From positions 18,290,001-18,354,000 of the forward strand of contig NC_135825.1 of NCBI RefSeq assembly GCF_964213995.1: a stretch of DNA of 64,000 bases, read 5' to 3'. This stretch comes from Mustelus asterias. Its lineage: Eukaryota. Below, piece after piece: positions 3,280 to 43,700 of this stretch. The notes below the pieces were generated by a model that was not told the DNA's origin, searched no databases, and saw only the letters and a list, made by a program, of their open reading frames with translations. Position numbers and translations under genes: made by a program. How positions within the stretch are numbered: the stretch's first letter is position 1; each line of letters begins with the position of its first letter.

Positions 3280-3305
3280 ATAATGAAATGATAAAACAGG
3301 CTTAC

Positions 3306-10083: not shown

Positions 10084-10556
10084 TTACGCCCAGTTGCAAC
10101 AGCTGCAGGCGGTGTCATAGACCAATCCAGAACCGCAATGTTCCTCGTAGGTCCTTCCATTGACACATTCGTAAAACTTGTTCTTGTCTTTGCGATCAGG
10201 GTAGGTACCATTGGCTTTGCCAACGCAGAACCCACTTCCGCCACCGCCACTTCCACCACCACCACTGCTGCTGCCACCACCACTGCTGCTGCTGCCACCA
10301 CCACCACCGCTGCTGCTGCCACCACCACCACCGCTGCTGCTGCCACCACCACCGCTGCTGCTGCCACCACCACCGCTGCCACCACCACCGCTGCTGCTGC
10401 CACCACCACCACCGCTGCTGCTGCCACCACCGCTGCTGCTGCCACCACCACCGCTGCTGCTGCCACCACCACCGCTGCTGCTGCCACCACCGCCACCACT
10501 AGGAGCCTGAGTAGGAGGAACAGCTGGCGGCAGTGTTGTTTTGGATGGAGCACAAG
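10084..10556 (-). CDS. chia: Copy A exon 11: Pro/Thr hinge, (Gly/Ser)90 linker, CBM14 ([48 protein letters not shown])
   Basis: 473 nt, phase-1 acceptor tttccttctag, 6-Cys chitin-binding domain, TAA at 10084-10086. This frame is not in the ORF track. Confidence 0.95.
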
Positions 10557-13500
10557 CTAGAAGGAAATAAAATTCACAAGTTCATTGCTTGCTGCAAAAT
10601 TAATAGTAAACAAAGTCAAACGTTGTAATGTCAGGGCTGTTGCTGCTTAGAAAATCTCAGGGTAGAACTCAATTCACAAATGTCTTGGTAATTCAGTTCA
10701 GTAAGAGCTACTGGCGAATTCTGATGACAGATCTAATGCTGCCTGAGTCTATTTGTTGGGGTGAAAATTTTGACATGCGATTTAATTATCACTTTATTTT
10801 TAATCAAATTGCACAGTTCTTGAACTCCATCTGATTTTTAAAAAAAGATAAATCTGTATCACAATACTGCTGCCTCACAGTGCCAGGGACACGCGTTCGA
10901 TTCCCGGCTTGTGTCAGAGTCTGTGTGGAGTTTGCATGTTCTCCTCGTGTCTGAGTGGGTTTCCTCCGGGTCTTCCGGTTTCCTCCCACAGTCCGAAAGA
11001 CATGCTGGTTAGGTGCATTGGCCATGGTAAATTCTCCCTCAGTGCACTCGATCAGATGCCAGAGTGTGGCGACTAGAGGATTTTCACAGTAACTTCATTA
11101 CAGTGTTAATCTAAGCCTACTTGTGACTAATAAATAAATAAAACTAAATAAATAAACATCCACTTAAATGACAAAATAATACATTCAGTTTATTTAATTA
11201 TCAATGAGTACTGGATGTAACAACCAGTACAGATTCATGACTTAGCATATTAATATTTTTATGAAAATGTGTTATACAAAATTGACTTTATTACATCCTC
11301 AGCTGGATATATATTAATTTATGATGCCATCATCTGGATATTCACTTTTTTTGAAAAGGACATTTTTCCTTAGCAAAGGATACTGGCTTACAGCAGCTGC
11401 TGCATTGCATTTGTAAAGGGCACAGTTTGCTTTTTATGGAGACCTGGGGATTTCAAAGAGAAGTCACATAATCCAGCTCTTGGGTAAAAAGATACTGGAT
11501 TTTCAACAGTCAAGGAGAGACTGCATCAGAGCCAACAGCCAACCCCATCTCTCTTTCTTCATCAAAGCTGAGCTATTTGTGATTTGAAAATCCCAACAGA
11601 AGAACTTATTGCTGCAAACTGAGAGTGCAAAAAGGAGAATTCCTAATTAAAAACCACAACATCTAGTGAAAACACCAAGATCCAGCAGCTACTGTGGACC
11701 AGGACCAATCAGCTGCAAAGACACATCTGGTCACCATGTGATTTTTTACTTCAGTGAATCTACTTGTTACACTGTCGAGTTTTTTAATAGCTGATACTTG
11801 AAGAGTTTTATTTCCTTTTTGCATTCTTGTCGAGTGGGGCATGGGGTTTCCTGAATCGTGTGCATTGTAGATTGGTTGGACTAGCTAAGAAATGATTGCT
11901 GAGTCATTAGCACATCTAAACAATAACTGGATTATTAGATATAATGACTTACAGGTGCACATATCTAATGCAAGCAACATTATCACTCTTTACTCTTGGC
12001 CATGTGTCCCTTGCATCATCTTTATGGGCAGTGCTCTTTATACCGTCCCACACATTGGACTGGATTATACGGCCTCGCTTGTCCCAAAACAGTAAAATCG
12101 TGCCCGAGGTTAACGGACCTTCCCATTGTCTGCCCCTCACCCACTCCGATTCCCATGGTGGGCGGGCCAGTAAAATTCCGGCCATTACATCTTACTGATC
12201 CAATACTACAATGTGTGTGTTGCCTGTGCATTAGTAAATTTTGTTTTTCATTAGTGAGTATCATAGAATCTCTACAGTGCAGAAAGAGGCCATTTGACCC
12301 ATCGAGTCTGCACTGACCACAATCCCAACTGTACCCTATCCCCGTAACCCATGCATTTACCCAAGCTAATCCCCCTGACACTAAGGGGTAATATAGCATA
12401 GCCAATCCACCTAATGCACACATCTTTGGACTGTGGGAGGAAACCGGAGCACCTGGAGGAAACCCACGCAGACATGGGAAGAATGTGCAAACTCCACACA
12501 GACCCAAGCCCGGGAATTGAACCCGGGTCCCTGGCACTGTGAGGCAGCAGTGCTAACCACTGTGCCACCATGCCGTCCTATTTGGACATAGTTGAGCATT
12601 TTAATATTTTGGTAGTAATTTCTGCATCTTTACCTGAATGAGTTTTAGGAATAAAGATGACACTTTACTTGTTAACTGAAGGAGCCTGGTTGGATTTTTC
12701 CTTGCACCAGGTTATATACAGTTAAACATATTCGAAATTAGCAATTATTAGTTGCTGCCCATACTGACTTTCTGATAGAAACTAGTAATCAGTTCCAAGT
12801 ATAAAGAATGCTGATACCTGCAGAAATTCCAAGCTCAGTGTGCAGCGCATTAATGAGAGGATAAGGCCCTTCGTTGCAGAAAGAACCAGAGAAATCATCC
12901 ATAGCAAGTGTCCACACCATGGCTCCTCCAAAGTTGTTCTTTTTCAACCACTTAGCCTGAAAGACATTGTTCACAACTTTAATTCACAAATTCTTGTTTG
13001 AAAGCAACTTCTATCTCAAATTTAACTTATACTCCCTAGGGTCAGTGTTGGGACCTTTGCTTTCCCTCATATATGTTAAGGACCTAGACCTTGGTATACT
13101 GGGCACAATTTCAAAGTCTGCAGATGACACAAAACCTGACAACATTAGGATCCGGGAGGGGGGAGGATAGTGCAGGATCTCGAAAGTCCAGAGGCAAGTT
13201 GGTGGAAAGGGCATACAGATGGCAGATGAGACTCAATGCAGAGAAAGGTGAAGTAATTCATCTGAGGGGAAGAACATGAAAAGGCAATATAAAACAAAAG
13301 ATACTTATTTGAAGGACCTGGGTATATATGCACCTAGGTAATTTCATTTTGCAGGACAGGTTGAGAGAGCACCCAATAATGGATGGAGTACCCAGGGCAC
13401 AGTATACAAGTACAAAGAGGTTGGGCAGGATTTTACAGTCTCGCTCAGGTGAGATCATAAAATCCCGCCTGAAGCCAACGGGGATTTCTATTCTGGGAAC

Positions 13501-16500
13501 CCGGGGTGGGCAATGTGGTAGGTTTTCACTGCTTATGTTTAACAAGGAGAAGTCAGTAGTTTGGCCTGAGCTGGAGTATTGCGCTCAGTCCTGGATACCA
13601 CCCTTTAGGAAGGACATGAAGGCATTAGAGGATGCGGTAAAGATTCATGAAAGTTGTTCCAAGAAAGAGTAACTTCAGTTATGAAGATTATGGAAATGGA
13701 TTGGAGATGATGGGTCTGTTTCCATTCGAGAAAACAATGCAGAGAAGAGATTTGATAGAGGTGTTCAAAATTATGAGTACAGGACCAAGTAGATAGGGAG
13801 ACACTCCCCACTCGGGAAAGGATTAATCATGAGAGGACACAGATGTAATGTAATCAGTAAGAGAAGCAACAGTCGTATGGGGGAAATCTCTGTCATGCAG
13901 CGAGGGGTTAGGCTCTGGAATGCATTGTCAAGGAGTAAGGGTGGGCAGATGGTACCAGGTGAGTTGCTATTTCAGAGAGCCGGTGTAGATACAATGGGCT
14001 AAATGGCCTCTTTCTGAGCTGTAACGATTTTATGACTCGGTGAAGAATCACGAGTGCCGGGACTTCCAGCTCCTGTTTTCAGGCGGCAGGAATGCCTATG
14101 CGAGCGGAAAATTGAGCAAGAGTCCCAAAACGGCTTTCTCACTGGTGGGATTTCCCTATTTGATTGTCTCCCCCACCCCTCACCCCTCCCCCCCCTACCC
14201 CTCCCCCCTCCAATAACTTAACGGGAATTATGTCTGATTGTCTGCCTGTCTGTTCATGCTGACATGAATCATGACAGGTCTGCCACCTCCCCCTCCACCG
14301 CACCCACTATGGTGTGCATCTGGTGACCAGAACCCACCGGAGGCAGACAGCCCCCACCCGGGAGAGTGTCATGCCTGGGCAATGCCCTGACACTGACCAG
14401 GCACGGCCCCTTGGCCCTGCCCCTTGGCACGAAACAGACACTTCCCCTGTTCCTGCACCCTGGCACACTCGTCAGGCACTTCCCCTTGCAATGCTCCCCA
14501 GCACTATTAAGAGGGGTGTTCCATGAGGGGAGGGGTTGCATGCAGGGGTGGGCTCCATGTCCCTGGATGGGTGGAGGGGGTGTTCCATGTGGGAGGTGCC
14601 AGGATGGTGCTTGTTTTCTTGATTTTTATTTTTTAAATTAGTATGGCCTTCAAAAAAGGTGTCTCATCTCTCAGAAACCTAAGTTATTGGTGGTTCAAGC
14701 TCAGTGAAGAGCCCACCCAGCAGCATGACATCATGGGAAGTGTCCCTTCCACTTTTTTTGGTGTTTGAAAATTCAGCGGGAAAACCCAGCAAGGCAGCCA
14801 GCGGGCAGGTTGCTCTCCACTTTTACTTCCCGAGACAATACTTTGTCAACAAATCGGAAAACTCCAACCTACATAACTGAATACAAAAGGTGACTTGGTG
14901 AAAATGGCCAAAGGTCCTCTGCTAGCTTTGCATGAATAGTGTTTCATTTGACTTTTGTCATAGACCAGGGGCACATGAAATATTTAATGAGTATTGTAAT
15001 GACTTTAAAATAGATATTCCGAATATCATTCCAATTGCTGTGTAAGTATCTGGGAAGTGAGTCATTTCAGAAAATGCCTCTATTTCTGTGATGGACCATA
15101 ATTTGGCTACAAAGAGGTGAGTTAACAGAAATATGAACATCTCCCAACACTCTTACATAAGAGACTAACTCAGAAATAAAAATGTTGGTTAAAGAGCATT
15201 AAATTATCCATGACACATGCTCCACCAAAGCTTTGTGTAATGGTATACTATTCGTTATTCAACTGATCAATATACCAGCATGATTCCAATGCTGATTGCA
15301 ACAAACTAGTTGTATGTTAAAACAAATTTTGCACAAAGCCACCAAATAAAAAGTGTAGAACATCAGCGATACCTTGTCTGTAAAGCTTCTCACATTGTCG
15401 TATCCAACCCATTCCTTCCCTTTATAAGCATACGGAACCACCTGTGGAGCATCCCATTTCTCAGTGCCCCCTTTCAAAAATGAGCAGATCTGTGAGAAGA
15501 GTGAGACATTAGCTTTCAAATCATCCGTTGTCACAAATCATCAGTGGCTTGCAGTGCTTTCAATTTACACTGACAACATTTCTCACTTAATTTTTCTTTA
15601 ATAACTTATTCAGCTACCATTTTCTCTCAGAGTGGAGGCACTGTCCTGTTTTGCTGTTATAAGCATAGTTTTATTCATAAATAGCAAATGCTGACCAATA
15701 TTATCCTTTATTAAAAGGTATTCATTGATTCCTCACACCGCATGTTTCCAATCTGGAAGAGACAAATAAGCGTCCAGACTTTATTCAATAACATGAAAGA
15801 GATTGATTTCAGGAATAGCATCAACACCAGTTTCCTTACCTTTCAAAAAATGTGGAAATCAGTCATCAGTTGGCACACAAACTGCTAAAGATTGGCTGCA
15901 ATATTTGTACAAAACCCCTGAATTTTTCTGTAGGGAGCAAGGTTAAGGAGATAAACTGTTATATCCTTCACTTTACATCCTTGTGTATTTTCTAAGACTG
16001 ACAACAATGGCCAGATGATGAAGGGTGTGACATTTGACAATGGTAGAAATGTCGGTTTCTTTAACAGTAAACCAGATCTTGCTTCAGAGTGAATTGCGCA
16101 GGTAATACGCATTGAAGATTATACTTAAGAGCTGGTTTCTCCCTAATAGCAGAGCTTCTTCTGGACAGGGAAGAGAAAATCCAGAAGGGAAGAGTGGAAA
16201 CCAGTGCTTGTACTATGCTGTAGTTTCACAATAAAACAGTTGTGAATCATCAGAGTGCCTTCTCTGTCTGATTTGATAAATGAATATTCACCTGTAAAAC
16301 ATGGTAGAAGAGGATTGTCCTCAATCTTCTAAAGTGGGAAGATAAAGAAAACAGAAAACAATCTCGGTTTCTGACAAAAGAAAAGATCTCGGTGGGTTTT
16401 AAGGTGAAGTAACTGAGTCACGTTGTAAGATCAGAAACTATGATTACCCACCAGTCCTTTCAGCATTAGATTCATAGGAACAAAATGGAGATGTGGATTC

Positions 16501-19500
16501 GCATCAGTTCTCTAGCTGAAAGGAAGCAAAATATTACACTGAAGAAGTCATAGTCAAAACGTTAACTCTGTTTCTCTCTTTACAGATGCTGCTAGATCTG
16601 CTGAGTTTTTCAGCACTTTCTGTTTCATTTCAGAGTCCCAGAGTTTGGACATCCTTAAAGAGGGTGGTCCTCCCAAATGGAATTGCAGGAATGCATCATT
16701 TCATCAGCAATGACATAGTTCAGAATGACATACTGTTATTGCTGAGTAAGTCTTCAATGATAAAAGCAAAAATGCGTTTGGACATGAAGAATGACAAAGT
16801 ATTTGTGTTCTGTAAACGATGGATTTACAGTTCACGAGATGCAGACATTATTATATTCCGCTGAGAAAACCAGGAGGTTCCCGTCAAGAAGTTCAAGAGG
16901 TATTGTTGACCTCTGGAGATAAGAGTCTGGCTAACAAGAAAAGAATCATCTGGAAATTGCATAAAAGATTTGTCCATCCTTCATCACAAGTTAAAGCTAC
17001 CATTAAAGGAGTGCGGAGTTGTGGATAAAGACTGTGTTCGCAACTGTAGTAGGCACAGTGGTTAGTATTGCTGCCTCACAGCACCAAGGACCCGGGTTTA
17101 ATTCCATCCTCGAGTGATTGTCCATGTGGAGTTTGCACATTCTCCCCGTGTCTGCATGAACTTCCTTCGGGTGCTCTGGTTTCCTCCCCCATTCCAAAGA
17201 TGTGCAGGTTAGGTGGATTGGCCAAGCTGCATTGCCCCTTAGTGTCCCAAGATATATCGCTTCGGGGGAATGAGCGGGGTAAATATGTAGGGTTACGGAG
17301 TAAGCCTGGGCTAGTAGTCAGTGTAGACTCAATGGGCTGAATGGGCATCTTCTATGTTTTTTTGTCATTATAAGGGAAAACTTGTTTTTAAGTTTATTTA
17401 TTAGTGTCACAAATAGGCTTACATTAACACTGCAATGAAGTTACTGTGAAAATCCCCTAGTCGCCACACTTCGCCACCTGCTTGGGTACACTGAGGGAGA
17501 ATTTAGCATGGCCAATGCATCTAACCAGCATATCTTTCGGACTGTGGGAGGAAACCGGAGCACCTGGAGGAAACCCACACAGACATGGGAAGAACGTGCA
17601 GACTCCGCGTAGACAGTGATCCAAGACGGGAATTGAACCCAGGTCCCTGGCACTGTGAGGCAGCAGTGCTAACCACTGTACTACCAGGCATCTTCTTGAT
17701 GCATATGGATGATTTTTTATGGAGGGGCATTAATGACTTTGTAGAAAATGTTATTAGTCAAATTAGGAAGGAATTTCAAATTGGCAGTCAAGCTTCTGGG
17801 TGGGTCTTTCAGGTATATGGGTTTGGAGATTAAGCAGGGTGAATCAGGCGGAATCTTACATCAACAATATTACTTCTTCAATGTCAATCAAAGAACAAAG
17901 AACAATACAGCACAGGAACAGGCCCTTCGGCCCTCCAAGCCCGCGCCGCTCCCCGGTCCAGGATTGAATCCTGAATCCAGGATCCCCGCCCAATTTTCCA
18001 GCCTATCTACATACTAATATCCTATCCACCGAGCTGTCCCTCACAGCTACGATGCTTTGTTCATCACAACCTATTAACTCACCCCCACCCCCCCATTTCA
18101 GACCATGTGATCTCCAGGGAGAGGCGAAAACCCAGAGTGAAAACCCCAGGGCCAATATGGGGAAAAAAAATCTGGGAAATTCCTCTCCGACCCCCTGAGG
18201 CGATCGAAACGAGCAGGAGATCACACTGGCCCTGATCGGAAAATGCTTCCCAACCCTAGTCATTTCCACTTCCACGAACACCATATGAATTCCCTGCCCC
18301 CAAGACAGGTTCCCAACTATCCGCAGTCTCGCTCTGTACTGGCACCAGCAAGATGATCATAGAATGAAGCCTTGAAACGAGAAACAAAGAACAATTAGCC
18401 CGCGCCGCTCCCTGGTCCAAACTAGACCACTCTTTTGTATCCCTCCATTCCCACTCCGTTCATATAGCTGTCTAGATAAGTCTTAAACGTTCCCAGTGTG
18501 TCCGCCTCCACCACCTTGCCCGGCAACACATTCCAGGCCCTCACGACCCTCTGTGTAAAATATGTCCTTCTGATATCTGTGTTAAACCTCCCCCCCTTCA
18601 CCTTGAACCTATGACCCCTCGTGAACGTCACCACCGACCCGGGGAAAAGCTTCCCACCGTTCACCCTATCTATGCCTTTCATAATTTTATACACCTCTAT
18701 TAAGTCTCCCCTCATCCTCCGTCTTTCCAAGGAGAACAACCCCAGTTTCCCCAATCTCTCCTCATAACCAAGCCCCTCCATACCAGGCAACATCCTGGTA
18801 AACCTCCTCTGTACTCTCTCCAAAGCCTCCACGTCCTTCTGGTAGTGTGGCGACCAGAACCGGACGCAGTATTCCAAATGCGGCCGAACCAACGTTCTAT
18901 ACATCTGCAACATCAGACCCCAACTCTTATACTCTATGCCCCGTCCTATAAAGACAAGCATGCCATATGCCTTCTTCACCACCTTCTCCACCTGTGACGT
19001 CACCTTCAAAGATCTGTGGACTTGCACACCCAGGTCCCTCTGCGTCTCTACACCCTTTATGGTTCTTCCATTTATCGTGTAGCTCCTCCCTACATTATTC
19101 CCACCAAAATGCATCACTTCGCATTTATCAGGATTGAACTCCATCTGCCATTTCCTTGCCCAAATTTCCAGCCTATCTATATCCTTCTGTAGCCTCTCAC
19201 AATGTTCCTCACTATCTGCAAGTCCTGCCAGTTTTGTGTCGTCCGCAAACTTACTGATCACCCCAGTTACTCCTTCTTCCAGATCATTTATATAAATCAC
19301 AAACAGCAGAGGTCCCAATACAGAGCCCTGCGGTACACCACTAGTCACAGGCCTCCAGCCGGAAAAAGACCCTTCCACTACCACCCTCTGTCTTCTATGA
19401 CCAAGCCAGTTCTCCACCCATCTAGCCACCTCCCCCTTTATCACATGAGATCCAACCTTTTTCACTAGCCTACCATGAGGGACTTTGTCAAACACTTTAC

Positions 19501-22500
19501 TAAAGTCCATATAGACAACATCCACGGCCCTTCCTTCGTCAACCATTTTGGTCACTTCTTCAAAAAACACCACCAGGTTAGTAAGGCATGACCTCCCTCT
19601 CACAAAACCATGCTGACTATCGTTAATGAGTTTATTCCTTTCTAAATGCGCATACATCCTATCTCTAAGAATCTTCTCCAACAACTTCCCCACCACGGAT
19701 CCCATCACAAGTCGTCCCAGATCAGCTGCTGCCAAGGATGAGATGGAAATAGCTGAGGTGTCTGGTCGGACTGATCAATTGGTTAGGCACACAGAGAAAA
19801 CCAGATGCAAGTTTTGATGTACTCGGATTTAGCCTCGTCATGAAAAATCACTCACCTGATGAAGGAGCAGTGCTCAAAAGCTCATGCTACCAAATAAATC
19901 TGTCAGGCTTTAACCTGGTGTTGAGACTTCTTACTGTGACTATCCCAGTCCAACGCCGACATCTCCACATCATGAAAAATCGGAAAGTGAAGGACATCTT
20001 GAGAGCGGATAAAAGTTTTAGAACATTGAAACTGGGGAAGTGTATGCCAAAGTTCCCAGCTTTGGGTGATCCCAATGATGTGAAATTAATTGTTTTTATT
20101 GATGCCTCACATGCAAACATTGAGGATGGATTTTCCAGGGCAGCAGGATTCGGGATACTTCTTATGTGAGAGAAAGGGAAGTTAGCCCTTCGCACGGAAG
20201 GCAAAGAAAATAAGAAGAGTGGTGAAGAGCACACTAGCCGCTGAAACTCTTGAATTTATTGATCTGTTCATATGGTGTTCAAGATCTTGGAAGAAATGCT
20301 GTATGAAAAATAGACTGGAAGAACAGTAACAATAGAATGTTGCACTGGCAACCGAACTTTGTGGGATAATGTGCATTCTATAAAGTGTGTAAATGAATAG
20401 AGGCTTCGGAGAAACATAGCCAGCTTAAAGCAGATGTTGGAAAGGACAGAAATCTCTAAGGTAGGGTATGTATGTATCAATCATCAATTATCGGATTGTT
20501 TCACTGAGAGGAATGTCTCTACAGAGAAAAATGTTGAAGGTGCTAGAAGAGGAATGTTTCACTGTGTAACAGCGGGGAAACAGAATTAACATCAGAATCA
20601 TTGAAGGAGGCTATTCAGCCCATCGAGCCTGCACCGACAACAATCACACCTAGGTACTATCCCCGTAACCCCACTTATTTACCCTGCTAGTCCCCCTGAC
20701 ACCAAGGGGCAATTCAGTGTAGTCAATCAACCTAACCCACACGTCCTTGGAGTGTGGGAGGAAGAAACACACACAGGCACAGGGAGAAAGTGCAAACTCC
20801 ACACAGTCACCTGAGGCTGGAATCGAACCTGGGTCCCTGGGCGCTGTGAGGCAGCAGTGTTAACCACTGTGCCACCGTGCTGCCCAGGATTGATTTATTT
20901 TTCTATATTTGTACCTGTATACCTTTGCCTAAGTAGAATTGTTTCCGTTTCTTTAAAGAGAGCCAACCTGAAAATGTTAGCAGTGCAGGTCCCTTTAAGA
21001 GTAATCCAAGACAAGTTTAAGAGTGAATCGAGTGAAGCTCATTGAAGCTTCGACATAAGGGTCGGGTATGTCTCTGGACAGGGAGACAATCCAGAAGCCA
21101 AGAGTGGAAACCAAGATGTGAACTGAACAGTAGTATCACAATAAAATAGTTGCGAATCATTGGAATATCTTCTGCTACTTAATTCAATATCTGGATATTC
21201 ACCTGTAAAACAGCATTATATCTCTGTTCATCAGGATATAATGATGCATGTTTCAGCTCCTGTTCTGTTGGTACCTAAGCTGAGTGATGCCATGTGTTGT
21301 GATTATAGCAGAGTCACAGGATCTTCATACATGGGACAGATGATCAGCTGGGTGCCTTTGGCAAGGATTTCAGAATGCACTGCCTGTTTTAACATTTGGC
21401 CATTCTGGAAACTTCCATCACTGCAATTGCAGGGAATAGTGAGCACATGCTTTTAACATACATTTCCCTGTTATTTATTCTGTCCAAGGAAGTTCATCTG
21501 ATCAATGTAATTCCTCACAACACACCTTTAATGTTTTTGGAGCATTAAATTCAGTACTTGGTTGGTTAGTATTTTCAAATATACTATCTTATGGAATAGA
21601 GAAGCTGCCTCAATATCAATACCTCATAATAGGCCAAGATTCCAGCCTGATTGGTGTACTTCCCAGCTGCTCCACGACCAGCTGTATAGGCTCCAACCCC
21701 AGTTTTGGATGAGGCCAGTATGAAGGTATGGCCATATGCAGCAAATCCAACATTCAGTTTCTCTGCAGGAGCTCCCTGTTTTCTCAGGAAATTCATTACA
21801 TAGTCCTACAGGGAAAAAAAAATCGTAAGTGTATGCTCGAAGGGCTTTGCAAACCATATGGCTGAAAACAATAAGACTATTAGAGAAAGGAGCAGAATTA
21901 AGCCATTCAGCCCATCGAGTTTGCTCTGCCATTCAGTCATGGCTGATATGTTTTTCAACACCATTCTCCCACCTTTAGCTTGAAACCTTTGATCCCCTTA
22001 CCAATCAAGAACCCATCTATCTCTGTCTTAAATACACTCAATGACCTAACCCCCGCAGCCTTTTGTGGCAATGAATTCCACAGATTCACCACCCTGTGGC
22101 TGAAGAAATTCCTCCTCATCTCAGTTCTAAAGAGTCGTCCCTTTACTCTGAGGCTGTGCCTTTGGATCCTCATCTCTCCTACTAATGGAAACATCTTACC
22201 CACGTCCACTCTGAAACAGATAGCCTATATTGAAAGTAATAAATATGATTGGATTCTATTTCCAAGAACACTTACCACATTAAAGTAAAGGTTGGTATAA
22301 TGATGATCATTTGGGAGAGGAAAAAGAGGGCTATTTTCTCCAGTGGCAATATTCCAGGATCCAAAGAAATCGTATGTCATCACATTGAAAAAGTCCAAGA
22401 TTCTGGAGGAGAAAGGAATTGAATTAGACTAGAATGAATGGTAATTATCTGACTCATTAAAGGATTGAGGGGTGACAATTGAAATCCTGTCCACAGTCAC

Positions 22501-25500
22501 AGCTGCATTATGATAAATGACAAATGAGAATGAGTTGATGCGTTTGGCTGAGGAAAAAATGTTAGCCAGATTCTTCCTTGAACAATGCCATGGGATCTTT
22601 AACATCTACTTAAGAGATCAGACAGAACTTCAGTTTAGCATCACATCCAAAAGACAAGAGTGCAGCACTAACTGAGCATTGCATAATGATTGAAGAGGGG
22701 GAATCTTAATGCATGGGAACTTTCTTCTTTAACTTAGAGATATCCTCATCTTATAAAAGAGAAAAGAGAAAAGAGGAAGATGTTCTCCTTGTTTCCAAAA
22801 CGACATTCAGCTCTCAATCAAAACTGGTAGAAATATTTCAGAACATGATCATGATCGCATTGCCGTTTTTGGGGATTTGGTGTGAGATTGTTGTTTGCTA
22901 CATTTGCAGACAATGCAGCCGTGTCTATTGTATCCAAAATACTTGATTGACTATGAACATATTTGGGATGCACTGAAGCTATGAAAGGTGGCACATCATT
23001 CAAATCCTTTCTACTATTCACCTTCTGCTTTTCAAATTTTACTACTGAAAGAAAGACACATTTGTGCAATTTTCTCAATATTATCCAAGTTGTGAATTCA
23101 TCATAACAGGGATATTCCCAGCCAATAACCAAACTATCAAACCCAAATCACTGCAAGAAGCTAAATTTAACTCAAGCTCTCTCTCCTCATCTCCCTGCCA
23201 CCCCTGTCCCTCCCTCCACTCTCCCTGTATTTACCCTCCTTTCCATCACCTTGCTTTAAGAACAGGTAGAGTTAGATAAGGTTTTTTATAAGATTCTCTA
23301 TCTCCTTGGCAAAATCCAGTGCTACAGTCACTGCATGACAAATTAGTCATTATTAATGTCTAACTTTGACCCTCAACACTGATAGAAAGTTAACTGTGTA
23401 GAGATTGAAAGCAGGGCCCAATTCTATCCTCACATGGTGACAAGATGCATGCATTTTACATCTGAAATTACAGGACAAAATAGAAATACCAAGAACATAG
23501 CATGACAGTGGTTAGCACTGCTGCCTCACAGCACTAGGGATTGCGTGGGTTTCCTCTGGTGCTCCAGTTTTATCCCACATTCCAAAGATGTGCAGGTTAG
23601 GTTGATTGACAATGCTCAAATTGCCCCTTAGTATCCCAAGATACATAGGTTCAGGGATTAGCAGGGTAAATACATGGGGTTATAGGGTAAACCTGGGCAA
23701 GAGTCGGTGCAGATTCAATGGGCCAAATGGCCTCCTTCTGCACTGTAGTGATTCTATGATCGAACATTGCCTCAGCTGGATTCAGCAAACTCAATACCAA
23801 CTGGAGATTGAATGGAGGACTTTCCAGATCTGGATGGTTCAGCTTTTTAAAAGTTTATTTATTAGTCTTACATTATCCGTACAACGATAAGGCTTACATT
23901 AACACTGCAATGAAGTTACTGTGTAATTCCCCTAGTCGCCACAGTCCAGCACCTGTTCGGGTCAATGTACCTAACCAGCACGTCTTTCAGAATGTGGGAG
24001 GAAACCGGAGCACCCGCAGGAAACCCACGCAGACACAGGGAGAATGTGCAAACTCCACACAGACAGTGACCCAAGCCGGGAATCGAACCCGGGTCCCTGG
24101 TGCTGTGAGGCAGTAGTGCTAACTACCGTGCCCCATGGTGCTACTAACTAGTTAAACTTGCTGAACTAGCAAAGAAGCACAACAAATTATCCCCATAGAC
24201 AGTCCAGTCTAAACAAGTTATCCCCATAGACAGTCCAGTCTAAACAAGTTACTTACTGTCCAAGGTTAGCAACCTCATATCGCATATTGATGTAACCCGG
24301 TGCAGCACCAATTGCAGCTGAAATCAGCATCCTGGGTTTTCCAGAGCTTTTCGCCTCAGCTTCAAAAGCTGCCAACATTTCCTAGAGGTTGAAAATGAGC
24401 AAAGTTTCAGAACCTCACCAAATGGAGGGTTTCAGACACAGGCTAAAGAATTGTCCAGCTTCATAATATATATCCATGACCAAGTGTCTTACAACAATTT
24501 ATCTAATCTAACGGTAAAGCCAGAGGTACGATCAGGCTTAAATGCAGCCCAGATCAATTGTTGTTACGATGTGGAGATGCCGGCGTTGGACTGGGGTAAG
24601 CACAGTAAGAAGTCTCGCAACACCAGGTTAAAGTCCAACAGGTTTATTTGGAATCATGAGCTTTCGGAACGCTGCTCCTTCATCCAAAAGCTAGCGATTC
24701 CAAATAAACCTGTTGGACTTTAACCTGATAGCTCTTACTGCACAGTAGCCAGAACCATGATTAATGAGAATTCAATTAAATTATTTTCATTGAGTAATTT
24801 CATGTGCTTCACATTTAAACATTCCATTTTCATGTTTCGCAAATCCTGCAAACCTGTCTTTTAAAACTGTTTGGGGGTAATCTTACCAAAAAAATTGCTG
24901 AACGAGAGTGAAAACAGGAGAGAAACGTGCCGATTTTTTGGGGCGAGCTCCCAGACGCAATCGGACAGCACGCAGAAAAGAAAGAGCCCAAATGTGATTC
25001 TCAGCAGCAAGGAGGGTGGGCGGAGCTATTCTTGCTGGAATGCCAGCTGATGAGCACTAGGGGCACCATTGCGCAGGTTCCCTGATCTCCCAGATCTGTC
25101 ACTCACCCCCACCACTCCCCTGGATAGATCGCCCCTTCCCTAATTGCTGTCCTGGTCATTGCTCCCTCCCTCACCACCCTCCCCCCAACCCCCAATCACA
25201 GGCCCAGACATTGGAAATCCCACACCCCTTAATCGCTGCCCCGGATGATGCCGATTGCCACCCGCCACCTGCCCCAGCCAGTCACCACCACCCCGATGCA
25301 GAGTGCCCCCAATACTGAGTACCCCCTGCCCTCCCCCCTTCAGAGCTCCCCTTCCAGCCTACCCCCATCATGGCCCCACCCCTGTTATGGGCCCAATTTG
25401 TCAGGCCCCAACCACTACAGGCCCCGCCCCCAAGCCCCATCCGCCACTTAGCACTTCCCAGTGCCCGGTGGCAATCTGGTAGTGCCAGGGTGCCAGACTG

Positions 25501-28500
25501 ACACTGCCTCATGGGCACTGCCCACCCCTGCCCCTGACTATCCAGGGCTTCAATAGCCTGTGGTCCCATCGGTGAGGCCATCACATCTGGTCCCCATTGG
25601 TGGGGACCATCTGTGATCCTCGGTGATGAGGACTTCGACTGGGGAGCAGCTAAGGGCAAATGAGCCCGGAAGATAATGTATTTAAATTGTGTTCTGCACA
25701 TAGACATCGGAAAGGACGTGAAGCTGATTTCACCAGCAGAATGAGGCTGGTAACATCGCAACAGGAGTAAAACAGGGCACGAACACAGTGACCCGATCCT
25801 ACCGGCTTGCCACACCGGTCAACCGGCAGAACGAGCTGATAAGATCGCCCTCTTTAAGTTGATCAGCTTGCAGATCAGCCATGATCCCACTGAATGGCCA
25901 AACAGACTGGAAGTGCTCAATGGCCCATGCCTGTTCTGGCATTCCATGTCCTTGGTGAGGACCTTGGAAAAATATTCAATTTTACAAACACGATAGAAAG
26001 ATGTTTTATTTCAGCAATGAGACTAAGCTTCCTGATCTTACCTTCACCAACACAGTGAAGAGACGTTTGCCTACTGTCCCAGGATATTCCCAGTCAATGT
26101 CCAAACCATCAAACCCATAACCACGCAGGAAGCTAATCACAGACTTGATGAAAATCTGGCGAGTTCCTGCCGAGGAAGCCATGGCAGTGAATCTAGAGGT
26201 GAGTAGAATGTTAAACAAGGTCAGAACTGAAATATTTTGGTTTCATTAATTACAAGTTGAACATTTAAAAGCTTTGACTCTTATTGTTTTATAATATGGG
26301 TAGGGAAGACTATTAATCCAGAAACTCAGCTAATGTTCTGGGAATCCCGCCATGGCAGGTGGTGGAATTTGTATTCAATAAAATATATCTGGAATTAAGA
26401 ATTTACTGATGACCATGAAACCACTGTCGTAAAAACCCTTTAGGGAAGGAAATCTGCCATCCTTACCTGATCTGGCCTACATATGATTCCAGAGCCACAG
26501 CAAGTGGTTGACTCTCAACTGCCCTCCAAGGGCAACTAGGGATGGGCAATAAATGCTGGCCAGCCAGCGACGCCCACATCCCACGAATGAATAAAAACAT
26601 ATATACAAGGAAACAAATTAGAATTTACTAAAAGAAAATTATGAAATGGCCTTGCTCTCTTGCTGCTCTGGATAATCAGTTGAATCAATTTTCACTGAGT
26701 GTATTAATGTAAATAAAGCCTTTATAAAAATAATGCAATATTTCCTTTTAGATATAATCTCATAAATATTGTTTGAATTATATTTTACACACAGTTGAAC
26801 ATAGTCACAGTAAGCTCATTAATGAAAATCTATTACTTGTCAAAAAATACAATTATACTTTCCAAATCTTTGACCCCAGCTTATTTTATATTATGAGCAA
26901 TCGGAAAATAAGCACTTTTCACCCAATATTGAAATAATATATAAAAGTATTTTCATCTTACTTCTGACCGCCAAACTTCCAGCCTCCAATGGACAGGAGC
27001 GTCTTAAGGTTTCCATTTCTGTTATAAGAATGAAGAAATTGTTCTTTCAGAATAAGGAACATAAGCAAATGTATTTATTAAACAACAGCACTGCTGAAAA
27101 TGATTATTGTCTTAATCTTTTTACTGCTTTCTCTTTTTGGGGCTAAATTTTAGTTGAACAGAAATACCTCAGAGCAGAACATAATGTGACACTGGGGGAG
27201 TGAAGGTAAGGTTCAAGCCTTATCCCACAGACTATCTCTCTATCACTGTTATGACATGGAAGGAGGCCATTTGGCCCATTGTGTTTGCACCAGCTCTCCA
27301 AATGAGCACCATGACATTGAACCATTCTCCTGCCTTTTCCCCGTACCTCTGTACATTGTTTCTATTCAGATGATCACCTAACCCCCTCTTGAATGCTTCA
27401 ATTGAACCTGTCTCCACTACATTTCCAGGCAGTGCATTCCAGATTCGAACCACTCGCTGTGTGAAAAGGTTTTTCTCAAATTGCATTTGCTTTAATTGCA
27501 AATCACTCTAAATCTGAGGCCTCTCATTCTCAATCCTTTTACACGAGGGAACAACTTCTCCCTATCTATTCTGTCCTGCCCTTGCATGATTTTGAATATG
27601 GGATGTGGATGTCGCTGGTACTGCCAGCATTTAGTGGTCATCCGTAATTGCGTTTGAGAAGTTGACAGTAGGAGGTCTTGTGGTGCAATGGGAAGTGTCC
27701 CTGCCTCTGAGCCAGAAAATCTGGGTTCAAGTCCCACTGCTGTATTTTATGCCCAAGCTGGGTTCAGTTGGGTGGAATGTGGCAATGCCTCCCTGACCTA
27801 CTCATGGTGGGGGACACAGTTCTGTTGTCTGGACCTGGCTTCGAGCAGAAACTTCAAAATAAGGCTTTTTGTGATCCACTTTCTTGAACTGCTGCCATCT
27901 ATCTGGTGCTGTTAGGAAGGGAATTCCTAAATATTTGTCCAGCAACAGTAGAAGAACAATGATGTTGTTCCAAAACAGGATGTTGTATGGCTTGGAGGGG
28001 AACTTGTAAATGGTTCCCTGGTATGTGCTACCCTTGACCTTCCAGGTGGTAGAAGTCCTGGGTTAGGAAGGTGCAGTCCAAGGAACCTTCATTGGTTGTT
28101 GTAGTGTTCCTTGTTTCTAGCATCCAGTGCTGCCAGTCTGAGTTGGTGTTTGAGGGAGTGAACACAAATTGATGCATTGGGTGCAGACCAAGCAGATTCC
28201 CTTGTACTCGCTGGTGTCAAGTTCTTTCAATGTTGTGTGTTCGAGCTGCACTCTTCCAGACAAGTGGAAAGCATTCCACTACACTCCTGAATTGTGCCTT
28301 ATTGATGGTGGACAGGATTTGAGATGGCAGGAAGTGAGTTACTCACTTCACAATTGCTAGTCTCTGACTGCTCTTGTATCCGCGGTGTTTATACGATTGG
28401 TCCAATTCAGTCTGTGGTCAACAATAACTCCCAATATGTCAATACTGGAGAAAGGGTGGGTGCAGAGGTGCGTATAGAATTGTAATACTATTTGAATGTC

Positions 28501-31500
28501 TTCAATTTTGCCAGGGTTCCTTGATATCACAGTCAGACAAATGTTGCATTGATTACACAGGGGGTCACTCTCACCTTCATGGATTTTGCTGGCAACATGG
28601 ATATTGCAGCTTTGAGTAAACATCAGAAACAAAGCCCTGTAGCAAGTCACCTGGTTGTCCTCTAAGGCAGGAAAGTACAAAGGGCAAGGCAGGAGTTTAA
28701 AAACAAAACCGCTTCACATTGGGCTACAATAATGGGGACCAGTGTCAATTTTGTGAGAATATTTAACACACATTGATTGGATCTTTTTAGCTGGCTGGAA
28801 TAACGAAAATGCAAATGCCATCTCAGTCATTCTGAGTTGCTGAACAGAGTGGAAATTCCAGCTCTCTCCATAGCCCAGTGTTTCTGCACAGATGCGGGTT
28901 TGTACACACTGCATTTTGTACGACACACATGGCAGCCTGTGCACCAGCGTATTCCAGGATTCAGGTGCAAGTGCAACATTTAGTATATGTGGCAAATATA
29001 ATCTAGTTGCACACTAATTAAAATAACTCTCAGTTTACCATCTCAGGGGTTTCAAATTGCAATGTGGAATGAATATAAAGTATTTCCTTGTTTATGTGGC
29101 ACAACATGGTGATACTATGATTGCGCCAGGCATTGTCAGACCCGCTGGGCATTGACTCATCTCTGTCAATGGGACACAAATCAATATAACCCAATTTCAC
29201 CCTTATATCAACATTAGATTAGTTAGATAGTCAACATCTTTTCCCAAAGAGAGGGGATTCTAAAATTAGAGGACACAGGTTTAAGGTGAGAGGGAAGAGA
29301 TACAAGAGGATCCAGAGGGGCAATTGTTTCACACAGAGGGTGGTTAGTGTCTGGAACAAGCTGCCAGAGGTAGTAGTAGAGGCGGGTACAATTTTGTCTT
29401 TTAAAAAACATTTAGACAGTTACATGGGTAAGATGGGTAGAGAGGGATATGGGTCAAACGCGAGCAATTGGGACTAACATAGCAGGTAAAAAAAAGGGCG
29501 GCATGGACATGTTGGGCCGATGGGCCTGTTTCCATGCTGTAAACCTCTATGACTCTATCTATATAACTGGGTCAATCATGTTATATTTCCATATATTGGG
29601 GTAATTTTTCAATGGTATACAGAATACAATAAAGACATTAAACTATATTTAGCATTGCAGGAATGTTCTCAATATTTATGGAAAAAATATACTTGTTTTT
29701 AAGGCTGTTGAATGAGTGGTAGAGTTTCACATCGTTCACTTCAGTGGTAGTGATTTGATTGTGCTTCATTCCAGCGAAAGAGTAGATCACATGTGTGCAC
29801 AAGCAGGGATCCACATTCTCTGGCAAGAACTTCCCCGCTCCTGGTCTGTACTGGGACCAGTTTGTAAAGTAACAAACCAGTCTGTAGGCAGAGCCTGAGA
29901 GTGAGGAGAAAGGAAAATCAGCACTGAGCCTCTACTCATTACATAAAATTCAAAATAGCTCAAAAAGCACAAAAGCTCACCCAGTTCCAGGCACGCCAAC
30001 AAGACCACTGCTGTAATAAAGAATATAGGAGAAGTGTTAAAATGATGATCAAAATATTCTGAAAGGTTTAAGGTTCACTGCAAAAGCTGCAAAATTTTCC
30101 TTCAAGTCATCGTCAAATTGATTATGTTTAAGAAAGTAGCTGAATTAAACTCTACAGACGGATCAATTTTCAAATGCATCTGAAAATATTCAAATGCTAT
30201 TAAGATTTCCATCAATTTGAAATATCCTGCACTGAAATTGAGGTGAATGATAACACCCAAACTGGAATAAACAGAAATTCTGAGAACGAAAGAACAGGTA
30301 GATTTACAAGGTAGAAAAAAAAGAATCTGTACAAAAAGCTGATGCTGTTTGATTCTTCATGGAGATATTTCAGTCAAATGAACAGAAACTGAAATGCCAA
30401 ACAACTTTATGACTACACCCTTGCAAATGAAATTTTCTGGCAAATCACCAATTATCAATGTGGTTGCACAGCATTCCTTTGCTAATTTAAACAATGAACA
30501 GTAGATAGTTAGCTTGCTAGCTTGGATGGCTAGTTAGTGATGCCAACAGCCGCGGGTTCAATTCCCATACTGGCTCAGGTTATTCGTGAAGGCCCTGCCT
30601 TCTCAACCTTGCCCCTCACCTGAGACATGGTGATCCTCAGGTTAAATCACCACCAGTCAGCATATGGTCATCTGGGACGGTAGCAAATTTAGTTTTTAAC
30701 CTAACAATAAGGCATCTTCAAATGATCCATTCCTTTACATTGAGACCTGAACCTGAGAAGGGATTGTCCTCTTTGTTATATTCCCCATTTAAATAGCCTT
30801 ACAATATTCTGAAGGTTGGGTAAAAGGTTGCAGGATGGCTCCATTCTCTTTCTATGCCTCAGTTGATCATAACAGGTCTCTTTAAAGAATCTTCTCACCA
30901 ATTTAATGAGTGTTTAACTGGAGAACGATATATTTTGTGAGAAGTGTTTGTGGACATGCTCATAGTTAGCCATAATCGCTGCTTGTTTGGCTTTGGAGAC
31001 GCTTTGCTCTTCAACATGTCTTTCTGGAAAGTGGGAGTGAACTTTTGAGTTCCTCAGGGACAATTGCATCTCTGAGGATTTTGTGCGTGGGATCTAACTT
31101 TAGCACGCGTATCTATCGATTGAAAACAAGTTGCTTAAGTCTTTCAAACCCAATATAGTTTTGCTCGGGTGACTTGCAGGAAGTTTGGAATTTTTCCCAG
31201 TACACCTCTGGTACCAGCCCATACACACTCTGAAAGCCATCATTGCTCATCTCGTAGTTTGTCGATTCTCATTAAACAATAGGGAATAAACCTCATGGGT
31301 TTTCCCTGTTAATCTGATTTGCAATATTAGGGTCCAAACCTCCACTCGCAACTTCAATCTCATTGTAAATTTTCTGAATGACACAAAAATTGCTTTCATG
31401 TCCTTCTCATTAAGCCTTGGTATCTTAAGAGCTCAATGATCAACCCTAGGTTAGTCATTTACCATACTTGTCTCCAATGGGTACAGCCGATACTTCCCCC

Positions 31501-40340: not shown

Positions 40341-40732
40341 TTACGCCCAGTTGCAACAGTCACAGGAAGGATCAAAGACTAATCCGGAAGCGCAACTCTC
40401 CTGGTAGGTCCTTCCATTGACACATTCGTAAAACTTGTTCTTGTCTTTTGGATCAGCATAGGTACCACTGGCTTTGCCGGCGCAGAATCCACTTCCGCCA
40501 CTGCTGCCGCCACCACTTCCACCACCACTGCTACCGCCACCACCACTGCTACCGCCACCACCACTGCTACTGCCACCACCACCACCACTGCTACTGCCAC
40601 CACCACCACTGCTACTGCCACCACCACCACCACTGCTACTGCCACCACCACCACCACTGCTTCCGCCACCACCACTCGGGGCCTGGGTAGGAGGAACAGC
40701 TGGCCGCAGTGTTGTTTTGGATGGAACACAAG
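40341..40732 (-). CDS. chia: Copy B exon 11: hinge, (Gly/Ser)63 linker, CBM14
   Basis: 392 nt; [48 protein letters not shown]. Confidence 0.95.
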
Positions 40733-43700
40733 CTAGAAGGAAATAAAATTTGCAAATTCATTTCTTTCTTCAAAATTAGTCGCAAACAAAGATGAACATT
40801 GCAAAGTCAAGGGCTGTTGCTGCTTCAAAAATCTCAGGGTAGAACTCAATTGCTTACAGTATCAGGAACAAACTTTTTGCAAATTCAGTCCAATAAGAGC
40901 TACTGACAAATTTGTGTGACATATCCATTTCTGTCTGGACTCTATATGATTTTACGTCAAGTTACACAAAATGTATGGAAGGTGTTATTGAATCACATCT
41001 ATTAATAACTTGATAAATTTGGATTAAAATTTTCACAGTGACTTCATTGCAGTGTTAATGTAAGCCTGCTTGTGACACTAATAAATAAACTTTAAACTTT
41101 AAAACTTTATTCTTTTAAATAAGAATGAGAGAGAGCGGAATGAACTCACACCTGCAATCGTGGTTGTAACAACATATGAATATGTTTCAATAGTTAAATT
41201 GTGTGCCGCATCTTATTTTACACATGTGATGCTTGTAGACATTCAGCAATATTCTACGAATCAAATTTCTGTGGCTCCAACAATGTTGATATTGAAAAAA
41301 ATTTAGGTGCTCATAATAATTGCTCTGTATAGGTTGCTCTGTAATAGTTGTTAGCTGCTGCCCACGCTGACTTTGTGGCAGAAACTAGTGATAAGCTGCA
41401 AATATAAAGAATCCTGATACTTACTTGATGAAATTCCAAGCTCAGTGTGCAGCGCATTAACAAGAGGATAAGGCCCTTCGTTACAGAAAGAACCAGAGAA
41501 ATCATCCATAGCAAGAGTCCATACCATGGCTCCTCCAAAGTTGTTCTTTTTCAGCCACTCAGCCTGAAAGACATTGTTCACAACTTTAATTCACAAATTC
41601 TTGTTTGCAAACAATTTTTGCCCCAAATAGAACTTACTCTCCCTGGGAGAAGTATTCAGACTCTTGCTTTTCCTCATGTTTATTAATGACCTAGAACTTG
41701 GTGTACTGGGCACAAGTTCAAAGTCTGAGGGTAATGCAACAGTTGAAAGCATTGTGATCCGTAAGGAGATAGTAGGATCTCAAAAGGCCATTGGTAAATT
41801 GGTGGAATGGGCAGACAGGTAGCAGATGAGGTTCAATGCAGAGAAATGTGTGTGACATTCATTCTAATAGGAAAACATGGAAAGACAATATATCTTTAAT
41901 AGGGAGGAATAGGAGTAGGGTGTATATGTGCCTAAGCCATTGAATCCATGATGTGGAGATGCCAGTGTTGAACTGGGGTGGACACAGTAAGGAGTCTCAC
42001 AACACCAGGTTAAAGTCCAATAGGTTTATCTGGAATAACGAACTTTCGGAGCGCTGTTCCTTTCATCAGGAGAATGGACTCACCTGATGATGGAGCAGTG
42101 CTCCAAAAGATCGCGATTCCAAATAAACCTGTTGGACTTTAACCTGGTGTTGTGAGACTTTTTACTAAGTCATTGAATTCAGCAGGACAGATTGAGAGAG
42201 TTGTTAATATAGTACACGGTATATTAGGCTTTATTAAAAGAGACATAGATCACAAGCACAAGTTATGTTTACCTTGCTTGGCCTTAGCTGGAGTGTTGCG
42301 CTCAGTTCTGGGCACTGCACTTCAGGAAGGATATGAAGGCATTAGAGGGTGCAGAAAAAGATTCACAGGAATGGTTCCAGGGTAGAGAAACTTCAGCTTT
42401 GAAGATTATGAAGATAGATTGGAGAAGTTGGGACTGTTTTGTTTGCGAAAAGAATAATGATTGGAGATTTGATAGAGGTACTCAAAATCATGGGTGGTCT
42501 GGACATACTAGATAGGGAGAAACCTTCCACGTGTGAAATGTCCAAGAACAAGAGGGCACAGATTTAAAGAAATTGGACAAAGAAACAGAAGTAATATAAG
42601 GAAAAATCTTTTCATGCAATGAGTGGTTAAGGTGTAAAATTCCCTGGCCTAAGAATGTGGAGGAGGAAAGTTAGATTGAAGGATTCAAATTACTGGTATC
42701 CCTAAAGGGTGAATGTGCAGGGTTACAGGGAGAAAGTAGGGGAATGGCACTCGGTGAATTGTTCATCCGGAAAGGTGCTGCAGACACAGTGGGCCAAATG
42801 ACCTCCTTTTGTGCCATAACAATGATTTTGTATATATGTACTACAGGCAGAACCTTACAATATTTTTTCAGAGTTTCAGTTTCTGTGAGAAAACTAATGT
42901 GGGACTCTCCACCTGCACAGCCGAGTCTTCTTTCCAGATTCTTTGGCCCTTTGTGCACAGAGGATCTGGGGCCATAGCCTTTGCCGTCATTCTGGCATGG
43001 CTGAGCCCATTGGATCCCCATGGACTCGGGGTCTCCCCCACAAGCATCAGGGCAAGCCCCCCCAAACACAGGAATCATGGCGATCACCCCCATGCACAAG
43101 CAATGGGGCAACTCCTCCACAACAAGCATTGGGCCGCACCCCTCTCCCCACCGGACAGACATCAGTGTGACACCCAATCACATAAGGGGAACTCCCTAAT
43201 GGCATACCCAAAGAGCTGAGCCAGGTTGACACTGCCATTGTACCAAGGGGCAATGCCAGGGCACTGTCTGGGCATGCCCCTCTCCCGCCAGGGGCTATAT
43301 TTAGCTATATTCCCTCAGTGGAATATATTGCAGGAAAGCCCTATCATTGTATTTATTAAAACTTATTGAAATTAGGTTCCCATTTCAGGTGGGAGGTAAC
43401 AGATATGAAAAATCGGGAACAAAATCTTGCCGGTGAGAATTTAATTTCCCAACTCTCACGCAATTTTGGGCCTAGATCAACATTCATACCAACAGCCAAT
43501 GCAGGCTCAAAGTTGCCCCCTGCATAACTGAATACAAAAAGCAGCTTCTCAACTTGTGAAAATGACCAAAGGTCCTCTGCTAGCTTTGCATGAACACTGC
43601 TTCATTGGACTTTTGTCATAGACCAGGGGACGTGGAAATATTTCCTATGGTGACCATTAAAATAGATTTTCCAGATATCATTGTTAACACTGTGTAAGTG

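What the first reader, a model, noticed from the sequence alone, without database searches (positions are those of the whole stretch)
10231..10500. Extreme pure Gly/Ser tether (90 aa) between the catalytic domain and CBM14 in copy A
Seen: 270 nt encoding only G and S (G3-5S3 units), in frame with the CBM14. Known: mammalian AMCase has a much shorter Ser/Gly-rich hinge, roughly 20 residues from memory. Inference: a natural analogue of engineered (G4S)n linkers. It has no aromatic, Leu, Lys or Arg residues, so it offers no preferred pepsin or trypsin sites and would give the catalytic domain long reach on insoluble chitin. The repeat is probably length-polymorphic.
Basis: partly seen in the sequence, partly recalled or inferred. 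Interest (0 to 1): 0.7.

Follow-up and report, generated by a model that had tools for sequence, protein, structure and literature searches.

The report
Extra-long Gly/Ser hinge in shark chitinase
One of twelve side-by-side chitin-digesting enzyme genes of a shark has a 90-residue glycine/serine hinge, the longest of a series (5 to 90) likely made by DNA slippage; it is an extreme length of a hinge already known from vertebrate stomach chitinases, and any benefit is untested.

Summary
In detail: window 10231-10500 (minus strand) is 90 codons of only Gly (55) and Ser (35), in frame in the last exon of an intact 11-exon GH18+CBM14 chitinase (542 aa). It is the top of a length series. Twelve tandem paralogues carry 5, 7, 9, 12, 14, 29, 29, 31, 40, 63, 75 and 90 residues, and three near-identical sister genes have 7, 31 and 75, which points to fast microsatellite slippage. 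No other chitinase examined exceeded a pure run of 34 (138 sequences). The RefSeq model of this gene omits 80 of the 90 codons at a non-canonical junction. No in-frame GT/GC-AG intron fits inside the repeat, and short-read contig ends agree with the assembly at both ends. The inner 181 nt and the mRNA could not be tested. A polymer estimate gives about twice the typical reach of a 20-residue hinge. Pepsin removes the binding domain of mouse and pig enzymes. The long-reach idea is already published for sardine. Best reading: a tolerated, slippage-expanded flexible tether; adaptive tuning is possible but unshown.

The parts
10231..10500 (-). 90-codon pure Gly/Ser run (compound GGT/GGC/AGC microsatellite, 13 units)
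10087..10230 (-). CBM14 chitin-binding module (Pfam match 10227-10087), followed by TAA at 10086-10084
10501..10554 (-). Cys/Pro/Thr stalk of the hinge, 18 residues, contains one Lys and one Leu
10084..10556 (-). Coding part of last exon (exon 11) of chitinase copy A, AG acceptor
10261..10500 (-). 240 nt absent from RefSeq model XP_078054039.1; ends AG..GT (or TA..GG if shifted by one), not a canonical intron
12818..30010 (-). Exons 2-10 of copy A (30010-29981, 29894-29693, 27018-26962, 26192-26042, 24381-24257, 22402-22276, 21805-21623, 15489-15373, 12956-12818): rest of signal peptide and GH18 domain with FDGLDIDWE; all GT-AG
33957..33981 (-). First coding exon of copy A (assigned by position; an identical 25 nt at 62527-62503 is assigned to copy B)
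40488..40676 (-). 63-codon Gly/Ser run of copy B, different unit (AGT AGC AGT instead of AGC AGC AGC)
40341..62527 (-). Chitinase copy B, 11 exons, 515 aa, no internal stop, 83% identical to copy A over residues 1-385

Best explanation
The stretch is a 90-codon Gly/Ser hinge in frame between the catalytic domain and the chitin-binding module of an intact shark chitinase gene; it likely grew by slippage of a GGT/GGC/AGC microsatellite and is predicted to act as a floppy tether whose extra length is tolerated rather than needed. Mechanism: CBM14 holds the enzyme on chitin and the disordered hinge lets the GH18 domain sample the surface nearby (family knowledge; inferred for this protein). Slippage in units of three bases keeps the frame and yields only Gly or Ser, so gains and losses cost little. 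Going from 20 to 90 residues would about double the typical distance and lower the local concentration of the catalytic domain about tenfold, still millimolar (estimate). Shown: sequence, gene structure, paralogue series, tree. Inferred: slippage, retention in mRNA, disorder, neutrality, stomach expression.
For: Intact gene, 10 of 10 introns GT-AG, DxDxE motif present, 542 aa. Twelve paralogues on one strand in G000:C25:18.27-18.64 Mb have runs of 5, 7, 9, 12, 14, 29, 29, 31, 40, 63, 75, 90 (the 40 includes one Asn, the 12 one Ile). L002, L003, L007 form one clade (100/100, end branches 0.021-0.046 in intron DNA) yet carry 75, 31 and 7; L005/L008 (0.02, 0.018) carry 29 and 14. Repeat units differ by copy (AGC AGC AGC in copy A, AGT AGC AGT in copy B and L004, GGA AGC in L002), so long runs arose more than once. 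The closest catshark protein (100/97) has 20. All 43 GT and 44 GC in the repeat are phase 1 and all 35 AG end in phase 2, so no in-frame canonical intron fits inside it. Contigs of run X1 end at 10282 and 10464, exactly where the assembled sequence predicts. Directly submitted shark chitinases keep runs of 24 and 18 (P0125, P0016). Loss of the binding domain leaves chitin degradation in pig and mouse enzymes (PMC6821832, PMC5121897), which fits weak constraint on the tether.
Against: RefSeq XP_078054039.1 has only 10 Gly/Ser residues here; its basis could not be seen. The inner 181 nt of the repeat are not spanned by any contig laid, and the array holds a 55-nt exact internal repeat, so the exact length rests on the assembly. 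X1 may be the assembly's own source. Neutrality is not shown: three intact-looking genes reach 63-90 while no other chitinase examined passes 34, which could reflect selection. In a bacterial two-domain LPMO linker length changed performance (PMC10598543).
Confidence: 0.65

Rival explanations
1. Adaptive tether series: the gene array keeps short, medium and long tethers because different lengths suit different chitin surfaces in prey cuticle, and the 90-residue form is selected for wide reach.
For: Long runs arose at least three times in one array; copies A and B are intact and the 75-residue gene shows exons 2-10 without stops in the aligned exon parts; catalytic loops also differ between paralogues. 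Sardine authors propose the same for their long linkers (PMC4728518); linker length affects an LPMO (PMC10598543).
Against: Tenfold length differences between near-identical sister genes are what slippage alone gives. Reach grows only with the square root of length. In the LPMO the longer variant performed worse than wild type. The sardine claim was not tested with linker variants in the passages read.
Confidence: 0.2
2. The protein does not carry the long hinge: either the 240 nt are removed from the mRNA as in the RefSeq model, or the assembly has inflated the array.
For: RefSeq model lacks 240 nt; two RefSeq isoforms of a sister gene also lack 33 and 57 nt inside their repeat, both with a possible GT-AG reading; 55-nt exact internal repeat; GC..AG pairs with donors upstream of the repeat (10531, 10528) would keep the frame.
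Against: Only two junctions reproduce the model and both are non-canonical. 33- and 57-nt gaps are below usual vertebrate intron size (own knowledge) and look like alignment gaps across alleles or paralogues. Seven of ten models in the block keep their repeat whole, including 40 and 29 residues. The X1 contig runs 52 nt into the repeat from the CBM14 side, 22 nt past the model's junction, and 37 nt from the other side, as predicted from the assembly (judged from contig lengths, letters not shown). The array is imperfect, with stretches of unique 31-mers.
Confidence: 0.1
3. The run is a glycosylation scaffold: Ser residues carry O-xylose/glycosaminoglycan or other O-glycans that stiffen and shield the hinge in the stomach.
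For: 3 GSG motifs and 14 SG pairs in the run (read); GSG in engineered Gly/Ser linkers is O-xylosylated at about 3-30% in mammalian cells (PMC5240648, passages).
Against: Only 3 of 13 units are G4S; no acidic residues nearby, which glycosaminoglycan attachment usually favours (own knowledge); no protein data.
Confidence: 0.05

Closest known systems
Acidic (mammalian) chitinase, CHIA/AMCase, and fish stomach chitinases AFCase-1/-2 (GH18 + linker + CBM14)
   Same: Signal peptide, GH18 with DxDxE, Pro/Thr stalk, Gly/Ser run, C-terminal CBM14; 59-61% identity to two mammalian and one teleost enzyme.
   Different: Gly/Ser run 90 against median 12-12.5 and maximum 34. Arg145 position lost in a 5-residue loop deletion and His208 is Asn; His269 kept. 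Sits in a chondrichthyan clade of many tandem copies.
Sardine SmeChi-1 and SmeChi-2, 'long linker' stomach chitinases (PMC4728518; passages and section 2.5 read)
   Same: Fish GH18+CBM14 chitinases with lengthened linkers (505 and 528 aa); same wide-reach proposal.
   Different: Copy A is longer (542 aa). The sardine linker composition is in a figure that could not be seen, so whether it is pure Gly/Ser is unknown to me.
Engineered (G4S)n linkers
   Same: Only Gly and Ser; three exact G4S units.
   Different: Ten of 13 units have 3-4 Ser; natural origin by repeat slippage (inferred).
Predicted multi-CBM14 protein of the butterfly Parnassius mnemosyne (CAK1580890.1, P0267)
   Same: Pure Gly/Ser tracts next to CBM14 modules, one of 221 residues.
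   Different: No GH18 domain; tracts space binding modules; itself only a gene prediction.

Membership tests
GH18 chitinase with CBM14 (vertebrate CHIA/CHIT1 type) | GH18 domain with intact DxxDxDxE motif | tested here: met
   FDGLDIDWE in copies A and B; PF00704 on P0001 and on copy B exons
GH18 chitinase with CBM14 (vertebrate CHIA/CHIT1 type) | C-terminal six-Cys CBM14 | tested here: met
   PF01607 E 1.6e-9 above cut-off; match to chitotriosidase CBM14 structure 6so0, E 1.7e-13
GH18 chitinase with CBM14 (vertebrate CHIA/CHIT1 type) | Uninterrupted reading frame with canonical splice sites | tested here: met
   11 exons, 1629 nt, one terminal stop, 10 of 10 introns GT-AG
GH18 chitinase with CBM14 (vertebrate CHIA/CHIT1 type) | Chitin hydrolysis by the protein | not testable with these tools
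   needs an assay
AMCase / AFCase-1 subtype | Arg145, His208, His269 linked to acid activity (PMC10761930 section 'Sequence analysis') | tested here: not met
   Arg145 position is Val beside a 5-residue deletion, His208 is Asn, His269 present; positions read off mammalian and teleost rows of the alignment. Lowers the claim 'is an AMCase', not 'works like a gut chitinase'
CHIA orthology group | Groups with CHIA to the exclusion of CHIT1 and CHIO | tested here: inconclusive
   35 chondrichthyan rows form one clade apart from 11 bony-vertebrate rows (100/100), but the tree held no CHIT1 or CHIO outgroup and is midpoint-rooted
CHIA orthology group | Stomach-specific expression (PMC10234404, passages) | not testable with these tools
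   no RNA holder listed
Coding microsatellite (slippage repeat) | Tandem short units, in-frame length variation between close relatives | tested here: met
   7/31/75 and 14/29 in tight clades
Coding microsatellite (slippage repeat) | Length polymorphism among individuals | not testable with these tools
   only k-mer contigs were available; they break inside the array
Spliceosomal intron or exitron (RefSeq's 240-nt gap) | GT-AG, GC-AG or AT-AC ends | tested here: not met
   only AG..GT or TA..GG reproduce the model

The most novel reading that the evidence does not exclude
A coding microsatellite acts as a length dial across a 12-gene shark chitinase array, giving the animal a selected library of tethers from 5 to 90 residues on diversified catalytic domains, and automated annotation hides the long members (the longest is trimmed; no model of the 63- and 75-residue genes was returned).
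Probability: 0.15. Interest if true: 0.55.

Novelty: new variant of a known kind. Interest (0 to 1): 0.28.

Why it matters
Why linkers of modular carbohydrate-active enzymes vary in length is described as largely enigmatic (PMC10598543, abstract passage). This array offers a natural series, including three close sister genes with 7, 31 and 75 residues, in which tether length can be tested almost alone. It also shows that a public model trims such a repeat (80 of 90 codons missing), so protein databases probably undercount long hinges. If the length is neutral, it is only a tidy example of microsatellite drift in a disordered hinge.

Tried and rejected
Sequencing runs: no RNA holder listed (21 runs, none on record as RNA, all kept as contigs), so expression and splicing were not testable. 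The four runs laid (X1, X3, X4, X5) were laid on the two flanks only; X1 covers intron and downstream DNA, and uncovered parts of X3 and X4 prove nothing. X3's contig ending at 10282 has depth 3.7 and is weak. A search with the linker+CBM14 region of P0002 gave 10 hits among 7989 candidates and no longer hinge; low-complexity words crowd such a search. A search of 1.84 billion representatives returned mostly multi-CBM14 proteins; 1 of the 150 listed (of 551) had a pure run of 40 or more and it is not a chitinase. P0283 (569 aa, stingray) is long through an N-terminal extension, not its hinge. One search had off-by-one exon bounds (false stops in copy B) and was redone. In one search the row for P0027 failed to map and was set aside; L014 was lost by the pattern (12 of 13 rows), 18 of 120 rows had no parsable anchor or CBM14. 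The CBM14+3' tree was mostly unresolved (2 of 9 branches starred). Other reading frames of the repeat (plus-strand Ala/Thr, Pro/Leu, His/Cys; minus-strand Val/Ala, Trp/Gln) were rejected: only the Gly/Ser frame joins a spliced GH18 gene to CBM14. Ten paper searches listed no paper on shark chitinase hinges or on this array; the library lacks most subscription journals, including the blue shark cloning paper seen only as a reference. No supplements were opened. PMC5532213 (one passage) added nothing. Earlier findings of the scan: none. No structure prediction was run, since a Gly/Ser run gives no fold to test.

Full report
Observation. The reverse complement of window 10231-10500 is 90 codons that give only Gly (55) and Ser (35); every Ser is AGT or AGC. 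The run consists of 13 units (nine G3-5S3, one G5S4, three G4S) with a leading Ser and trailing Gly. It lies in a stop-free minus-strand frame ending in a CBM14. In the 64-kb window, arrays of this type occur only here and at 40498-40676, the matching place of a second gene.

The gene. A homology search returned a protein identical over the CBM14, named acidic mammalian chitinase-like of Mustelus asterias, XP_078054039.1. Mapping it to the window gave the exons. Copy A has 11 coding exons from 33981 to 10084, all 10 introns GT-AG, 542 aa, one terminal stop and FDGLDIDWE; copy B (62527-40341) is also intact, 515 aa, with 63 Gly/Ser, and 83% identical over residues 1-385. An 18-residue Cys/Pro/Thr stalk with one Lys and one Leu precedes the run and Phe follows it.

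The array. The own genome gave 23 CBM14-exon matches (20 on C25) and 27 catalytic-exon matches (26 on C25); these are lower bounds and not copy numbers. Twelve genes lie on one strand at C25:18.27-18.64 Mb. Their runs are 40, 90, 63, 29, 5, 9, 12, 14, 29, 7, 31 and 75 residues in order along the contig (the 40 includes one Asn, the 12 one Ile). The units differ by copy. In a tree of intron end and exon start (12 of 13 rows), L002, L003 and L007 form one clade (100/100; end branches 0.021-0.046) with 75, 31 and 7 residues, and L005 and L008 another with 29 and 14; copy A is outside both. In a tree of 46 catalytic domains the closest relative of copy A is a catshark protein with 20 (100/97). Length therefore changes fast and long runs arose more than once, as expected from slippage of a trinucleotide-based repeat (inference).

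How extreme. Of the best 120 of 1335 homologues, 102 could be parsed: median longest Gly/Ser run 12, maximum 34. With a looser pattern over all 296 proteins held, 138 parsed: median 12.5, maximum 34, none of 40 or more. Sardine chitinases reported as having the longest fish linkers are 505 and 528 aa (PMC4728518, section 2.5); copy A is 542 aa. The comparison is biased, because models can trim such repeats and no model of the 63-, 75- or 31-residue genes appeared among the hits or cluster members listed. Outside chitinases, a predicted butterfly multi-CBM14 protein has a 221-residue (G4S)n-type tract.

Is it in the protein? The RefSeq model has only 10 Gly/Ser residues: it lacks 10500-10261. 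An exhaustive search found two junctions that reproduce it, AG..GT and TA..GG, neither canonical; within the repeat all GT and GC are phase 1 and all AG end in phase 2, so no in-frame canonical intron has both ends inside. 73 in-frame GT/GC..AG pairs exist in the exon before the CBM14, all with donors upstream of the repeat; none gives the model. Of ten models mapped in the block, seven match the genome and three have gaps inside the repeat (240, 57, 33 nt). Directly submitted chitinases of Mustelus manazo and blue shark, likely cDNA-derived (inferred from accession type), keep 24 and 18 residues. I read the 240-nt gap as an annotation artefact or a shorter allele, but no RNA could be examined.

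Is the assembly right? From the assembled paralogues, a 31-mer graph predicts contig ends at 10282 and 10464. Run X1 has a contig from 10163 of 120 letters (end 10282) and one reaching 37 letters before 10501 (start 10464). This supports both ends (89 of 270 nt) and argues against a genomic 240-nt deletion in that sample, judged from lengths only. X1 may be the assembly's own source. The inner 181 nt were not spanned; the array holds a 55-nt exact internal repeat. A run of another organism (X5) also continues 30 letters into the hinge side and stops.

Mechanism. By family knowledge the CBM14 anchors the enzyme and the hinge tethers the GH18 domain. A worm-like-chain estimate (0.38 nm per residue, persistence length 0.4-0.5 nm, assumed) gives 34 nm contour and 5.2-5.8 nm typical distance for 90 residues against 2.4-2.7 nm for 20, with local concentration falling from about 34 to 3 mM. 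The gain in reach is about twofold. The run adds no preferred pepsin or trypsin site, but sites at its borders remain, and in mouse and pig pepsin releases the catalytic domain and degrades the binding domain while activity persists (PMC5121897, PMC6821832, passages). This fits a weakly constrained tether. Against neutrality: three apparently intact genes reach 63-90, and linker length changed performance in a bacterial LPMO, where the longer variant was worse (PMC10598543, passages). O-xylosylation at the three GSG motifs is possible by analogy with engineered linkers (PMC5240648, passages) but untested.

Comparison. The gene is a member of the vertebrate GH18+CBM14 chitinases. It should not be filed as AMCase/AFCase-1 type in the strict sense: of the three acid-activity residues named in PMC10761930 (section read) only His269 is kept. 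CHIA orthology was not resolved for lack of an outgroup, and stomach expression is inferred from relatives (PMC10234404, passages). The wide-reach idea for long fish chitinase linkers is published (PMC4728518, passages). Ten literature searches listed nothing on shark hinges or this array, within a library that lacks most subscription journals.

Verdict. Real, the longest chitinase Gly/Ser run among those examined, but a quantitative extreme of a known hinge, best explained by repeat slippage (0.65). Adaptive tuning 0.2, absent from the protein or misassembled 0.1, glycan scaffold 0.05. Interest 0.28; the paralogue series is the part worth following.

Noticed in passing
G000:C25:17.6-19.0 Mb: Large chitinase cluster: 26 catalytic-exon and 20 CBM14-exon matches on this contig, on both strands, with a 12-gene tandem block at 18.27-18.64 Mb.
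   Followed up: partly
window 26042-26191 (copy A exon 5) and 47680-47830 (copy B exon 5): The loop after the catalytic Glu is 5 residues shorter and altered ([17 protein letters not shown] against DWEYPGSRGSPP), shared with the catshark relative of copy A; several paralogues have other variants, suggesting diversified substrate clefts.
   Followed up: partly
L005 (G000:C25:18560972 region): Two RefSeq isoforms differ from the genome by 33- and 57-nt gaps inside the Gly/Ser repeat; neither keeps the genomic 29 residues. May reflect alleles or misaligned reads.
   Followed up: partly
window 40341-62527; L002; L003: No protein model of copy B or of the 75- and 31-residue genes appeared among the hits or cluster members listed, though copy B is intact and the other two show exons 2-10.
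   Followed up: partly
G000:C3552:28863-29003 and 4620-4742: Small contig gives the same CBM14 exon translation and the same scores as C25:18110590 and 18134821; possibly a leftover haplotig.
   Followed up: no
G000:C25:18401430 and 18408987: Two equal-scoring catalytic-exon matches 7.5 kb apart upstream of one CBM14 exon; possible internal duplication.
   Followed up: no
L018 (G000:C25:18984784): A CBM14 exon whose frame continues past the module into a Thr/Pro-rich stretch, unlike the terminal CBM14 of the other copies.
   Followed up: no
P0267 (CAK1580890.1): Predicted butterfly protein with 20 CBM14 matches spaced by Gly/Ser tracts, one of 221 residues of nearly pure (G4S)n.
   Followed up: partly
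window 2561-3301 and 18422-19774: Open frames resembling LINE reverse-transcriptase fragments (recognised from recall, not searched), the second inside intron 8 of copy A.
   Followed up: no
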